64,000 bases of DNA from Escherichia coli (GTDB lineage: Bacteria > Pseudomonadota > Gammaproteobacteria > Enterobacterales > Enterobacteriaceae). The DNA lies in assembly GCF_030013205.1 (NCBI RefSeq), contig NZ_CP122648.1. One strand, 5' to 3'. Made by a program: the position numbers. Every line of letters starts with the position of its first letter. Within the stretch, counting starts at the first letter, position 1. Positions 21,001 to 24,000 of the stretch are shown here, piece by piece.

Positions 21001-24000
21001 AGAGGCATGACACGAAGCTCGCCCGTCTTTCCGCCTGTGGTCAACGTAGCAACATAGGAACCGTCACCTTTTTCGGTCCAACTGGAAATAGTCGCCCCTT
21101 CAGAGGCGGTCCCCGTCAAACTTGCCGACAACGAAAGACCACTGATAGCGTTGCCATGCGCATCTTTCGCCACCAGCGTCACGGTTGTGCTTTCGCCAGC
21201 TTTTACGTGATCTTTTACGACAGAGACTTTCGACTGGTTTGAAGATAACGCATCAGCCACCACGGTTACTTTTGCCGCGTTTGCTGCCGCATCCTGTCCA
21301 TTTAGCTTCGGCATAACTTCTAATTCACCCGCCGTAGAGCCGAGAGTAATCTGCGCAGTCCACGTCCCATCACCATTATTTGTCCAGCCCGATGCCGTAG
21401 AACCTACAGCAGCGGCACCCGCTAATGACGGCGCTTCCGGCGTGAGGCTGGTCACAGGGTTGTCATTGGCATCTTTTGTCGACCAGATTGCCGTAAGCGT
21501 ACCGCCGACCACCGGTTTATCCGGATTCAGGGTGATGGACGAATGTGCTGCATCAAGCGGCCCGGCAACAAACTTCAGCGTTTGTTGTAATGTGCCCAGC
21601 TGATACTGCTCGCTGAAGGCACGCACAACAACGTTTCCGGCACGGGTCGAAGAAACCGTGGCGCTGTAAACCCCTGGTTTTATTCCCGAAATGGCACCAA
21701 CGGTTACACCATTAGTGTCTTGCGGAACAAGTCGCAGGCGGCTGGCTTCTCCCGTCACCGGATTACCCTCGGAGTCCACCGCTGTCAGTGTCAGCGTGTA
21801 GGCTTGCTGACCATCAGCAACCACATCACCTGACGGCTCGTTAGCGCTCAGGGTGGAGTTTGCCACATCCATCATCGTGGCCCGCAGTTCTGCAGTGACA
21901 GTTTTGCTCATGTCATCAACCGCTAACAGTAATCGTTGCCTCACCTGACTGCGTTCCGGTAGTAAAGACAGACTGATACACCCCTGCTTCAGTTTCGGTG
22001 AACTCACCCAGTGTTGGCTTTGCCTGTGATTTAGTGGCCTTCAGAGAACGAGTCACAATATTTCCAGCCGGTTTGAAAGTTAGTTCAGTCTTGATCTGAT
22101 CTTTCATGCCCGTGACTGGCTGACCCTCGGCGTCGCGCAGAGACAGCACCAGCGGCTTTTGCTCATTACCGTTAGCAAGCATTTGAATACGGCTCTGACC
22201 GTCAAGCGTTAACGCCGTACGATCGGCGCTCATACCAGCTCCGCTAATAACCACTTCTGTCTGCACACGTTTCGAGGCATTGCCTTTGTTATCGTAGGCA
22301 ATCGCTGAAACCGCATAATAATTGTCTTTGCCTGCCTGATAAGCCGGGAGCGTCACTTGCCACTGATTGCCCTGCCCCGTAATTTTTCCGCCTGCGGCCA
22401 GCAAAGACGGCGCTTCCCATTGCACATTTTTCAGACCGTGAGTTGCTTTGCTGACCACAAGCCCCAGGGAAACCGTCTGGCCGCCCTTGCCTTCAATACG
22501 CTCAGGCAGAGCAATACGGATCACTTCAGATTTGCGATACTCAAGAACGATATTGTTATTACGCTCAACCAGGTCATAGCGGCTGCCTGCCAGCATTCGA
22601 CGCTCGCGAATGCTGTCTGTATCGAGTTGTTTTTCCAGAGGTTCGCCAATCCGATAATTAACTTCCAGGCCAAAGCGAGTGTCATTCTCACCACTCTTGC
22701 CCTGCTTATGCCCAGCACTCAGGGTCAGAAGAGGCACTGGCGTGTAATTCACTTCAGCGGTAATCGCATGTGGATCTTTCTGGCGTTTATCTTTACCAAA
22801 CAGCCCGACTTCATCGCCATAATACTGTTCATACATCAGGCTTGCGCCAAGCTGCGGCCAGGCAGGTAAATAACCCTCAGCACGAATATCCCAGCCATTC
22901 GCCGGGCGTTCCTGATAATCCTCAACATCCGGCGATTTTTTCCAGCCAGAAGCCCGGATATAACCATTGGCGCTCAGTTTCAAATAATCACGCCAGTATT
23001 CCGCACCAACACCAATGCGGGTATGACTACGGGATAAATCATGATCGATAAAAGTATTCACCCCCGCCATCCAGTCATTTTCTGAAAAATGACGCCAGCC
23101 AAAACCAATATTTGACTGAGTACGATCGTCGGTACGATGTATTGCCCCCTGAGTGAACAACATATTTGTCGGTGTATCATAAATCGGATAAAGCATTTCC
23201 AGCGAAGAATCCTTCAGCGAGAAATCTTTATCGACATTCAGTTTGACGCGCGCAGTACCGTATTTCCCGAGCCACTCCTGAATTTCCTGGTTAGCTTTAG
23301 CGGTGGCCATTCCGGTAATAAAGTTACGTGTCGCATCGCTATCTGGCTGACTGCTTAAAAATGTCCCGGCATTTGCGGCAAACGACGCGACATTTTTCTC
23401 CACATTATTATCAGCAGCTACTGTGGTATTTTCCATGCTCAAACGTGGCTGAACCGCATGCTGCGCACGTGCTGCCATTACTGGCGTAAAGGTGACAGCG
23501 AGTGGAAAAAGAACCTGAACAGAGATATTTGCCCACGCCACGCAGCGGGCCAGAACTGAATAACGAAATCGTGGTTGTTTATGACCTGTTTTATAACGTG
23601 ACATTGAGATAATTTCCTGATAAACGAATTAACGAACATAGGCAGACACAAATAATGGCGTCTGCTTGTCAGAAAAACCGGGGATTTCCCGGTTTCCTTT
23701 TCCGCAGAAAAGGAAATACCTTTATGTAAGAAAGTACACCGCCACCTAATATATCCAGTGTCTGTAGCCACTCATCAGGTGGTTGGGCGCGGGATTATAT
23801 TTTTATTTATGGGTAAAAATTTAGCTTTTTGTACAAGTTATTAAATAGATACTTAAGTTATATTTCTTACTCTGCGGGCAGTGAATAATTCATTATTAAG
23901 AGTGAATAATAATGACCCGTCTTTAATTAACTGCTATTGGGAGTACGTCGAAGTGAGTATATACGCCAGGATAAACCAATATATTTTTTATGGACATTCA

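What the first reader, a model, noticed from the sequence alone, without database searches (positions are those of the whole stretch)
23642..23716. Cluster of mutually exclusive stem-loops upstream of eaeH
Three hairpins occur in 75 bp: GCAGAC/GTCTGC, AAACCGGG/CCCGGTTT and TTTCCTTTT/AAAAGGAAA. The second and third share the TTT at 23693-23695, so they cannot both form. Such overlapping alternatives are typical of attenuator or riboswitch-like leaders, or of a small RNA, and lie in the eaeH 5' region.
Basis: seen in the sequence. Interest (0 to 1): 0.3.

Follow-up and report, generated by a model that had tools for sequence, protein, structure and literature searches.

The report
Structured leader upstream of adhesin gene fdeC
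Three (really four) stable stem-loops lie just upstream of the E. coli adhesin gene fdeC/eaeH; they most likely fold in its mRNA leader, the middle one looking like a terminator, but they are not mutually exclusive and no function has been shown.

Summary
They fold far better than shuffled sequence (z -4.6 on the plus strand, -5.3 on the minus strand). They are not mutually exclusive: the second and third compete only for three A-U pairs, and all three cores coexist with probability 0.86-1.00.

The window is E. coli. The cluster lies 38-112 nt upstream of the fdeC (eaeH) start codon, on the minus strand. It is single-copy, unannotated and has no Rfam match. It is present in about 5,030 of 5,426 complete E. 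coli genomes and in three other Escherichia lineages, but not upstream of related adhesin genes in other genera.

Variation falls mostly in loops. Stem changes mostly keep pairing on the fdeC-sense RNA: the U.G variant is the majority allele, and there is one compensatory G-C to A-U pair. Covariation is not statistically significant.

On the sense strand the middle hairpin is followed by UUUUUCU, like an intrinsic terminator. The same U-run can pair with the fdeC ribosome-binding site.

Best reading: a conserved structured 5' leader that damps fdeC expression after initiation. The transcription start is unknown to me and function is inferred. An RNA thermometer, given that FdeC appears only at 39 C or above, is attractive but unsupported. 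Interest is modest.

The parts
23642..23665 (-). Hairpin H1. On the sense strand it reads GCAGACGC-CAUUAUUU-GUGUCUGC: a 6-bp core, 8 bp with G.U, and a variable loop.
   Evidence: Core probability is 0.99. The E69-like lineage carries the compensatory change GCAAAC/GTTTGC, and contig L092 carries the G.U intermediate.
23675..23695 (-). Hairpin H2. On the sense strand it reads AAACCGGG-AAAUC-CCCGGUUU: a 5-bp all-GC core with a 3-bp A-U extension. This is the stem of the terminator-like element.
   Evidence: Core probability is 1.00, with dG -8.1 kcal/mol for the core and -11.6 for the full stem. The majority E. coli allele AAAUCGGG keeps U.G on the sense strand only. The loop is exactly flipped, AAATC to GATTT, in 315 genomes.
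23668..23677 (-). U-run UUUUUCUGAC on the sense strand, immediately 3' of the H2 core. It is the terminator tail and also the candidate anti-Shine-Dalgarno segment: UUUUCUGA at 23669-23676 pairs with 23613-23620.
   Evidence: Sequence. MFE structures. Helix probability is 0.50-0.56 at 37 C. The segment is invariant in 22 of 23 distinct haplotypes.
23693..23716 (-). Hairpin H3. On the sense strand it reads UUUCCUUUUC-UGCG-GAAAAGGAAA: 10 bp, sharing its 3' AAA with the base of H2.
   Evidence: Core probability is 0.86-0.93. The stem is invariant except for rare variants that break one pair.
23716..23737 (-). Hairpin H4, not in the original finding. On the sense strand it reads GUACUUU-CUUACAUA-AAGGUAU: 7 bp, of which 2 are G.U and would be C.A mismatches on the plus strand.
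   Evidence: It appears in the folds of nascent and full leaders. It marks the 5' edge of the block conserved in the divergent E69-like lineage.
23602..23620 (-). fdeC ribosome-binding region. UCAGGAAA (Shine-Dalgarno AGGAAA at 23613-23618) is followed by a spacer and the AUG at 23602-23604.
   Evidence: ORF list. RefSeq annotates the fdeC start at this position in many strains. The region is invariant in all haplotypes.
23794..23799 (-). Perfect TATAAT on the fdeC-sense strand, a candidate -10 element that would put the start near 23787 and give a 5' UTR of about 183 nt. This is inferred, not mapped.
   Evidence: Sequence. It is conserved even in E69-like lineages. The 30 nt just downstream (-191 to -162) are the least polymorphic of the intergenic region, pi 0.004. 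The consensus scan did not call it because the -35 is poor.
19350..23604 (-). fdeC/eaeH, the inverse-autotransporter adhesin gene served by the leader. In this strain it is frameshifted into two ORFs.

Best explanation
The hairpins are a conserved, structured part of the fdeC (eaeH) mRNA leader and act as RNA on the minus (fdeC-sense) strand.

Read 5' to 3', the leader carries four abutting stem-loops, H4, H3 and H2, then a U-run, then H1, then the Shine-Dalgarno sequence and the AUG.

H2 has a GC core followed by UUUUUCU, which is the anatomy of a Rho-independent terminator. I infer that a fraction of transcripts entering from upstream stop there, as attenuation or insulation.

In transcripts that read through, the same U-run (UUUUCUGA) can pair with the Shine-Dalgarno region (UCAGGAAA), enclosing H1, and lower translation initiation.

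The net effect would be a post-initiation brake that keeps this H-NS-silenced adhesin off, on top of promoter silencing.

Shown: the structures, their stability, their conservation and their lean towards the sense strand. Inferred: that the region is transcribed from an fdeC promoter upstream of H4, that H2 terminates, and that the U-run occludes the ribosome-binding site.
For: - Stability: z is -5.29 on the sense strand against -4.61 on the plus strand. The region ranks 18th of 6,390 windows.
- Position: the cluster lies 38-112 nt upstream of the annotated fdeC ATG in a 565-bp divergent intergenic region.
- Distribution: it is single-copy and present in 5,033 of 5,426 complete E. coli genomes. 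The proximal 156 nt are 95-100% identical, while most genomes are only 90-95% identical over the whole 641-nt query that spans the intergenic region.
- Diversity: nucleotide diversity is 0.003-0.065 in the proximal 280 nt against 0.07-0.13 in the middle of the intergenic region.
- Other lineages: the element is retained in E. whittamii, Escherichia sp. E1V33 and the E69-like lineage, where the sequence upstream of H4 has diverged.
- Loops versus stems: 8 of 17 loop columns vary against 12 of 49 stem columns. The H2 loop even flips exactly while the stem is kept.
- Strand lean: C49 to U gives U.G on the sense strand and a C.A mismatch on the plus strand; it is carried by 2,600 + 315 exact RefSeq matches against 1,741 for the C allele. 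H1 pair 79-96 goes from G-C to A-U in the E69-like lineage, with a G.U intermediate. The G.U pairs in H1, H4 and the anti-SD helix exist only on the sense strand.
- Terminator anatomy on the sense strand: 5 GC pairs (dG -8.1 kcal/mol), a 5-nt loop and the tail UUUUUCU. The d'Aubenton-Carafa-type score is +8.0 on the sense strand against -5.7 on the plus strand; the formula was recalled from memory.
- RBS pairing: the U-run/SD helix is in the MFE of every leader tested. Its probability is 0.50-0.63, and the SD pairing probability is 0.75-0.9.
- No consensus promoter lies between H2 and the ATG on the sense strand, so any fdeC transcript must include the cluster.
- Biology fits a multilayer brake. 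FdeC is undetectable in vitro, H-NS-repressed, lies in a silenced protein-occupancy domain in K-12, and is induced only at 39-42 C or on host contact (PMC11143625, PMC3324786, PMC4191405).
Against: - No transcript evidence is available. The fdeC start site (Easton et al. 2014, AEM) could not be read.
- The K-12 Cappable-seq table shows no same-strand start near the cluster. The only one is 536 nt upstream, at a K-12-specific deletion junction.
- The E. coli 3'-end atlas supplement has no eaeH entry.
- Covariation is not significant: one double-sided pair, reached by 122 of 500 shuffles. Sequences are 98% identical, so conservation has little power.
- The H2 stem is short for an efficient terminator, and no antiterminator alternative exists.
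- Predicted RBS pairing is not unusual: 0.59 in a generic -15 to -6 window, against a median of about 0.57 for 45 other genes in the window.
- With a 572-nt transcript (536-nt leader plus 35 nt of coding sequence), SD pairing drops to 0.35.
- The hairpin segment is the most polymorphic part of the conserved leader.
Confidence: 0.38

Rival explanations
1. Passive two-way insulator. The hairpins are simply terminators in an H-NS-bound, AT-rich intergenic region. They would stop stray transcription from upstream from running into fdeC, and stop antisense transcription arising inside fdeC from running into the divergent aldo-keto reductase operon. They would have no regulated role in fdeC expression.
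For: - H2 has an A-run on one side and a U-rich run on the other, the shape of a bidirectional terminator.
- The consensus scan flags H3 as terminator-like on the plus strand.
- K-12 has a same-strand start site 536 nt upstream that would need stopping.
- Other top-folding loci in the window are long palindromes between genes.
Against: - Terminator scores on the plus strand are negative: H2 -5.7 and H3 -50.7.
- The majority U.G allele weakens only the plus-strand version.
- No promoter is recognisable between H2 and the ATG, so fdeC's own transcripts would also have to pass the 'insulator'.
Confidence: 0.17
2. RNA thermometer. At 37 C or below the U-run after H2, with help from the segment upstream of H3, sequesters the Shine-Dalgarno sequence and the AUG. 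At 39-42 C the marginal helix melts and FdeC is translated. This would explain the unusually high temperature threshold reported for FdeC.
For: - FdeC is detected only at 39 C or above in EHEC, and at 42 C but not 37 C in APEC using a native promoter-plus-leader reporter (PMC11143625, citing Easton 2014).
- UUUUCU pairs with AGGAAA, a fourU-like arrangement that includes a U.G wobble.
- The helix is marginal and weakens with temperature: probability 0.61-0.63 at 30 C and 0.41-0.47 at 42 C.
- Both strands of the helix are invariant.
- No paper in the searchable library links fdeC or eaeH to an RNA thermometer.
Against: - Predicted melting is shallow: SD pairing goes from 0.84 to 0.73 between 25 and 45 C. 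A competing pairing that covers the AUG becomes more likely when warm, 0.10 rising to 0.35.
- RBS occlusion is no stronger than for average genes in the window.
- There is no match to Rfam thermometer families.
- Thermoregulation could be entirely due to H-NS or a sigma factor.
- Covariation cannot test it, because the helix never varies.
Confidence: 0.12
3. No function. The palindromes are neutral relics, for example old terminators of a lost upstream gene. They would persist because Escherichia lineages are so close, and because inverted repeats are homogenised by template switching.
For: - Mean column identity is 98%, so conservation is weak evidence.
- Covariation is not significant.
- The exact loop flip shows DNA-level hairpin-mediated events at H2.
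- The hairpin segment is more polymorphic than its flanks within the leader.
- IS elements have inserted there without obvious cost: ISEc60 in FDAARGOS_943, where fdeC is itself disrupted.
Against: - The proximal leader is clearly less diverse than the middle of the same intergenic region.
- In the E69-like lineage identity drops sharply just upstream of H4 but not within the leader.
- Stem substitutions are mostly pair-preserving.
Confidence: 0.2
4. DNA-level operators. The inverted repeats are binding sites for dimeric regulators, for example the LysR-type regulator encoded next to the reductase genes or another fdeC-cluster regulator, rather than RNA structures.
For: - H1 is a 6-bp inverted repeat with a 12-bp spacer lying between two divergent genes.
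- Symmetric (compensatory) changes also preserve operator symmetry.
- A LysR-family gene lies nearby.
Against: - Three or four different palindromes packed end to end would need several regulators.
- The frequent one-sided C to T change breaks DNA symmetry but keeps RNA wobble pairing.
- An exact loop flip is tolerated.
- The arms do not fit the LysR T-N11-A box (from sequence and my own knowledge).
Confidence: 0.07
5. A plus-strand (antisense to fdeC) small RNA or leader. It would start from the promoter-like site 23629-23656 (TTAACG-16-AATAAT) and contain H2 and H3, possibly with the SD-like AAGGAAA and the ATG-TAA mini-ORF at 23724-23729.
For: - A promoter-like hit lies on the plus strand.
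- There is a weak sub-threshold Rfam DUF2815 alignment, 18.5 bits against a gathering score of 41.2.
- The plus strand also folds well, z -4.61.
Against: - Promoter-like hits are no more frequent than in shuffles: 2 found against 2.7 expected.
- The resulting RNA would be only about 35-65 nt.
- The majority allele introduces a C.A mismatch in H2 on this strand, and H1, H4 and the long-range helices lose their G.U pairs.
- The Rfam hit is far below threshold.
Confidence: 0.04

Closest known systems
Rho-independent terminators used as 5'-leader attenuators, including the premature-termination leaders catalogued by 3'-end mapping in E. coli (PMC7815308)
   Same: A GC-rich stem-loop is followed directly by a U-run on the gene's sense strand. 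It lies between the presumed promoter and the ribosome-binding site, and further hairpins flank it.
   Different: No competing antiterminator structure exists, no leader peptide or known ligand or protein partner is evident, and no mapped 3' end is available. The stem core is only 5 bp.
FourU-type RNA thermometers (agsA, lcrF, toxT, shuA/chuA class; from my own knowledge)
   Same: A run of U residues pairs with the AGGA of the Shine-Dalgarno sequence in a marginally stable helix containing a wobble pair. The gene is a virulence or adhesion factor whose expression rises with temperature.
   Different: The anti-SD and SD are 45 nt apart and enclose another hairpin, rather than forming one simple hairpin. 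There is no Rfam match. Predicted melting is shallow. The reported threshold (39 C or above) is higher than for known virulence thermometers. Nothing has been tested.
Stabilising 5' stem-loops of outer-membrane protein mRNAs (ompA-type leaders; from my own knowledge)
   Same: Several stable hairpins sit in a long leader of an outer-membrane protein gene, upstream of a single-stranded ribosome-binding region.
   Different: The position of the 5' end is unknown, so it cannot be said whether any hairpin is 5'-terminal. fdeC is silenced rather than highly expressed.
Repetitive extragenic palindromes (REP/BIME, ERIC, BoxC)
   Same: A cluster of short palindromes in an E. coli intergenic region.
   Different: The element is single-copy per genome and matches nothing else in the window. 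It is tied to one gene.

Membership tests
Intrinsic (Rho-independent) terminator / attenuator | GC-rich stem-loop immediately followed by a U-rich tract on the transcribed strand | tested here: met
   On the sense strand, CCGGG-AAAUC-CCCGG (dG -8.1 kcal/mol) is followed by UUUUUCU; the score is +8.0. The plus-strand version scores -5.7 (the scoring formula is from memory). The tool's own scan did not list it, apparently because it extends the stem through the AAA/UUU pairs.
Intrinsic (Rho-independent) terminator / attenuator | Transcription enters it from an upstream same-strand promoter, and RNA 3' ends map to the U-tract | tested here: inconclusive
   K-12 Cappable-seq shows a same-strand start site 536 nt upstream and none closer. 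No eaeH entry appears in the 3'-end atlas supplement. The gene is silent under laboratory conditions.
Intrinsic (Rho-independent) terminator / attenuator | A mutually exclusive antiterminator structure (for regulated attenuators) | tested here: not met
   The H2 core coexists with H3 and H1, with probabilities 0.86-1.00. The overlap with H3 is only three A-U pairs.
RNA thermometer (fourU / ROSE and relatives) | Shine-Dalgarno and/or AUG sequestered in a helix that opens in the physiological temperature range | tested here: inconclusive
   The UUUUCUGA/UCAGGAAA helix is in the MFE, with probability about 0.6 at 30 C falling to about 0.45 at 42 C. RBS pairing is not above the background of 45 genes, and AUG pairing stays at 0.72 or above.
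RNA thermometer (fourU / ROSE and relatives) | Sequence/structure match to a curated thermometer family | tested here: not met
   The Rfam 15 E-value search of 23000-24600 returned only three chance-level hits, none of them a thermometer.
RNA thermometer (fourU / ROSE and relatives) | Temperature control persists when transcription is made constitutive | not testable with these tools
   Only whole-gene temperature dependence is reported (PMC11143625, citing Easton 2014). H-NS could account for it.
Riboswitch | Conserved ligand-binding aptamer with covarying helices and conserved junction or loop nucleotides, found across taxa | tested here: not met
   There is no Rfam hit. The hairpins are simple with freely varying or even inverted loops. 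The element is confined to Escherichia fdeC. Covariation is not significant.
Independent small RNA gene | Own promoter and terminator delimiting a short transcript, or a match to a known sRNA family | tested here: inconclusive
   TATAAT at 23794-23799 plus the H2 terminator would delimit an RNA of about 118 nt, but no start-site or 3'-end data exist. There is no Rfam hit, and nothing is annotated here in NC_000913.3.
REP/BIME/ERIC repeat families | Many dispersed copies per genome | tested here: not met
   The median is 1 place per genome and the maximum is 2. There are no other copies in the window at 2-3 mismatches.

The most novel reading that the evidence does not exclude
The fdeC leader is a thermosensor tuned to fever or bird and bovine body temperature. 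A marginal fourU-like helix between the U-run of a terminator-like hairpin and the Shine-Dalgarno sequence, possibly coupled to termination at that same hairpin, would switch FdeC on only at about 39 C or above. The common H2 alleles (C, U.G, flipped loop) would set lineage-specific thresholds.
Probability: 0.12. Interest if true: 0.6.

Novelty: new member of a known kind. Interest (0 to 1): 0.3.

Why it matters
FdeC/EaeH is a broadly conserved E. coli adhesin and a vaccine candidate. Its expression is notoriously hard to elicit in vitro, and the known controls are H-NS silencing and an unusual 39-42 C threshold.

A conserved, structured leader with a terminator-like hairpin and a ribosome-binding site that can be occluded would add a post-initiation layer to that control. 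It would also give simple handles (H2, the U-run) for making the antigen expressible.

It is also a small, clean example of how stem-preserving polymorphism arises in a natural population of thousands of genomes: a U.G allele in most genomes and an exact loop inversion in a minority.

If the hairpins prove inert, the finding is ordinary.

Tried and rejected
1. Rfam. An E-value search around the site and a gathering search of the whole window gave nothing relevant.

2. Deep comparative data. A scan of 100,044 species genomes with the FdeC N-terminus found only three non-coli Escherichia orthologues carrying the leader. The upstream regions of 75 related adhesin genes in other genera share no sequence and give no covariance-model hit better than E 0.1.

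3. Covariation on 23 distinct haplotypes from RefSeq plus a metagenome scan was not significant.

4. Transcript evidence.
- Easton 2014 is not held, nor is Thomason 2015.
- The Conway 2014 supplements are not held.
- The Adams 2021 supplements have no eaeH entry.
- The Cappable-seq table is truncated, apparently before its minus-strand entries. On the eaeH strand it shows only a distal start site at a K-12-specific junction.

5. Locus-tag and topic searches of the literature (Z0375/ECs0336; eaeH + sRNA; fdeC + UTR; RNA thermometer) returned nothing useful.

6. I tested whether RBS occlusion is exceptional against 45 genes in the window. It is not.

7. A leader peptide or upstream ORF is rejected. 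The only sense-strand ORF through the hairpins (23478-23771, GTG start) lacks a Shine-Dalgarno sequence and is frameshifted by the 1-nt indel in E69-like sequences.

8. A promoter between H2 and the ATG is rejected. CTGACA is a good -35, but no -10 lies at a workable spacing, and the scan finds none.

9. Repeat-family membership is rejected.
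Full report
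**Where the finding lies.** The window is E. coli, 100% identical to strain K_EC180 across this region. The finding lies in a 565-bp intergenic region. On one side is fdeC, also called eaeH, on the minus strand with its ATG at 23604. In this strain the gene is frameshifted into ORFs 21916-23604 and 19350-22007. On the other side is a divergent aldo-keto reductase gene at 24170-25021 on the plus strand. The hairpins are therefore 38-112 nt upstream of the fdeC start codon.

**Checking the observation.**
- The 101-nt segment folds at -33.9 kcal/mol on the plus strand (z -4.61) and -36.0 kcal/mol on the minus strand (z -5.29). No shuffle out of 200 folded as well on either strand.
- Against all 6,390 sliding 100-nt windows of the 64-kb sequence, GC-adjusted, it ranks 34th (plus) and 18th (minus). 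Only a handful of loci with long perfect palindromes rank higher.
- The 'mutually exclusive' description does not hold. Both MFE structures contain all three hairpins. In the sense-strand ensemble the cores have probabilities 0.99 (H1), 1.00 (H2) and 0.86-0.93 (H3). Only the three outermost A-U pairs are contested, split about 0.45/0.45.
- A fourth 7-bp hairpin, H4 at 23716-23737, abuts H3 on the sense strand.

**Distribution and annotation.**
- The segment is single-copy (median one place per genome) and is present in 5,033 of 5,426 complete E. coli genomes.
- No annotated feature lies under it in any record listed. Nothing is annotated there in the K-12 reference NC_000913.3 either, where the neighbours are the ykgP pseudogene and eaeH.
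- Rfam gives no credible hit.
- A scan of one genome per bacterial species with the FdeC N-terminal domain found the leader only in Escherichia: E. coli, Escherichia sp. E1V33, E. whittamii and the divergent 'E. coli E69' lineage.
- The upstream regions of 75 related inverse-autotransporter genes in other genera share no sequence. A covariance model of the leader gives no hit there better than E 0.1.
- It is not a member of a dispersed repeat family.

**Conservation.**
- The proximal 156 nt are 95-100% identical in essentially all genomes, whereas most genomes are only 90-95% identical over the whole 641-nt query that spans the intergenic region.
- I combined RefSeq loci with 120 metagenome contigs recovered through an invariant 18-mer outside the hairpins. 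This gave 44 haplotypes of a 256-nt segment and 23 distinct sequences of the 143-nt leader.
- Nucleotide diversity, computed on 63 distinct sequences of the wider 851-nt region, is 0.07-0.13 in the middle of the intergenic region. In the 280 nt before the ATG it is 0.003-0.065, similar to the coding sequence.
- In the E69-like lineage, identity collapses just upstream of H4 while the leader stays about 93% identical.

**Pattern of variation.**
- Loops vary more than stems: 8 of 17 loop columns against 12 of 49 stem columns.
- The H2 loop occurs as AAATC, GAATC, AAATT, AAATA and, strikingly, as its exact reverse complement GATTT. That is a hairpin-mediated flip that keeps the stem. It has 315 exact matches among RefSeq genomes.
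- Stem changes are mostly pair-preserving on the fdeC-sense RNA. The C to U change in H2 gives U.G on the sense strand and a C.A mismatch on the plus strand. It is the majority allele: 2,600 + 315 exact matches against 1,741 for C.
- H1 pair 79-96 is G-C in E. coli and A-U in all three E69-like haplotypes. One metagenome contig carries the G.U intermediate.
- Two rare singletons go the other way.
- Formally, covariation is not significant: one pair changed on both sides, which 122 of 500 shuffles reach. With 98% mean identity the data cannot prove a structure. They lean towards sense-strand RNA.

**Anatomy on the sense strand.** Read 5' to 3' the order is H4, H3, H2, a U-run, H1, about 20 nt of spacer, the Shine-Dalgarno AGGAAA, and the AUG.
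- H2 has a 5-bp all-GC core (dG -8.1 kcal/mol), a 5-nt loop and the tail UUUUUCU. This is the anatomy of a Rho-independent terminator.
- A d'Aubenton-Carafa-type score, with the formula recalled from memory, is +8.0 on the sense strand and -5.7 on the plus strand.
- No antiterminator partner for the H2 core exists upstream.
- The one real alternative pairing involves the U-run. UUUUCUGA (23669-23676) pairs either with the AAA at the base of H2 or with UCAGGAAA (23613-23620), which is the ribosome-binding site, enclosing H1.
- That long-range helix is in the MFE of every leader length tested. Its probability is 0.50-0.56 at 37 C, 0.61-0.63 at 30 C and 0.41-0.47 at 42 C.
- SD pairing is 0.75-0.9 overall.
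- This is not exceptional. In a generic -15 to -6 window, fdeC scores 0.59 against a median of about 0.57 for 45 other genes in the window. Pairing over the AUG stays high when warm.

**Is the cluster transcribed?** I could not obtain the one paper that mapped fdeC regulation, Easton et al. 2014.
- The K-12 Cappable-seq table shows only one start site on the eaeH strand between 311,344 and 314,502 (U00096.2 coordinates). It is at 313,045, which is 536 nt upstream of the eaeH ATG.
- That site lies 14 nt from the K-12-specific ykgP deletion junction, and its extended -10 TG comes from the K-12-specific side. It may therefore not exist in strains like this one.
- The 3'-end atlas supplement has no eaeH entry, as expected for a gene inside a silenced protein-occupancy domain (PMC4191405).
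- On sequence grounds, the scan finds no consensus promoter on the sense strand between H2 and the ATG. A perfect TATAAT at 23794-23799 is conserved even in E69-like lineages, and it is followed by the least polymorphic 30 nt of the intergenic region, pi 0.004.
- I therefore infer that fdeC transcripts start upstream of H4 and carry the whole cluster. That is inference, not observation.

**Biological context.** FdeC is not expressed under ordinary laboratory conditions.
- It is repressed by H-NS and appears only at 39 C or above in EHEC (Easton 2014, as cited in PMC11143625).
- In an avian strain it appears at 42 C but not 37 C, using a reporter with the native promoter and leader (PMC11143625).
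- It also appears after host-cell contact (PMC3324786).
- No paper in the searchable library mentions a leader structure or an RNA thermometer for fdeC or eaeH.

**Verdict on mechanism.**
- The best-supported reading (confidence about 0.38) is a conserved structured 5' leader acting in cis as RNA. H2 plus the U-run would act as an attenuator or insulator, and the U-run would partly occlude the ribosome-binding site in read-through transcripts. This would be a post-initiation brake added to H-NS silencing.
- A purely passive two-way insulator (0.17), a neutral relic (0.20), a thermometer (0.12), DNA operators (0.07) and a plus-strand small RNA (0.04) remain open.
- The thermometer idea is the most interesting because it would explain the odd 39 C threshold. 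The predictions are lukewarm and nothing distinguishes it from H-NS-based thermoregulation.

**Comparison with known systems.** The element works most like a leader terminator or attenuator and, secondarily, like a fourU thermometer. It fails the defining 'alternative antiterminator' test for regulated attenuators and matches no curated thermometer or riboswitch family. I would not file it as a member of any named family. It is an unannotated, lineage-restricted example of a familiar kind of element, so interest is modest unless the experiments listed under next steps show regulation.

Noticed in passing
window 19350-23604 (minus): fdeC is frameshifted in this strain into two overlapping ORFs (21916-23604 and 19350-22007). 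RefSeq marks the identical K_EC180 gene as a frameshifted pseudogene, so the leader here serves a broken gene.
   Followed up: partly
window 23675-23695, and loci L081-L084, L204 and others: The H2 loop is an exact reverse-complement flip (AAATC to GATTT) between E. coli lineages, with the stem kept. This is a signature of hairpin-mediated template switching. Exact matches in RefSeq: 1,741 for the window type, 2,600 for the U.G type and 315 for the flipped type.
   Followed up: yes
L085 (FDAARGOS_943) about 1417-1510; L126: An IS4-like ISEc60 element is inserted inside the left arm of H2 in one genome, where fdeC also carries an IS1. One metagenome contig has a rearrangement at H4/H3.
   Followed up: partly
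window 23707-23729 (+): On the plus strand the 3' arm of H3 is an SD-like AAGGAAA, followed 9 nt later by ATG-TAA, a start-stop mini-ORF. A sub-threshold Rfam DUF2815 alignment covers it (18.5 bits against 41.2).
   Followed up: no
window 23794-23830 (minus): A perfect TATAAT lies in an A/T-rich context, followed by a GC-rich, nearly invariant 30 nt. Just upstream is a polymorphic T/C run ending in (C)CCCAT that resembles a sigma-32 -10 element. Its spacing to a CTTGTAC -35-like element looks too long. This could be relevant to heat induction of fdeC.
   Followed up: no
window about 24141-24155 (minus); L091 1507-1522: The only K-12 Cappable-seq start site on the eaeH strand (313,045 in U00096.2) lies 14 nt from the junction where K-12-type strains have lost the two reductase genes. 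The extended -10 TG is supplied by the ykgP remnant, so this looks like a deletion-created promoter.
   Followed up: partly
window 10219-10262, about 5270-5340 and 33137-33195: These are the other top-ranking folding loci. One is a 19-bp perfect palindrome between convergent ORFs (z -7.2). One is a long interrupted hairpin on the minus strand near the start of ORF 3325-5358 (z -5.7). The third is a pair of perfect hairpins in a gene-poor, 31% GC stretch (z -5.3).
   Followed up: partly
window 41670-41870 (-), 59844-60031 (+), 60920-60992 (-): Rfam gathering-level hits lie elsewhere in the window: IS009 RNA, isrK and C4 antisense RNA next to each other, and a tRNA. The isrK/C4/tRNA group suggests a P4-like prophage or integration site near 60 kb.
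   Followed up: no
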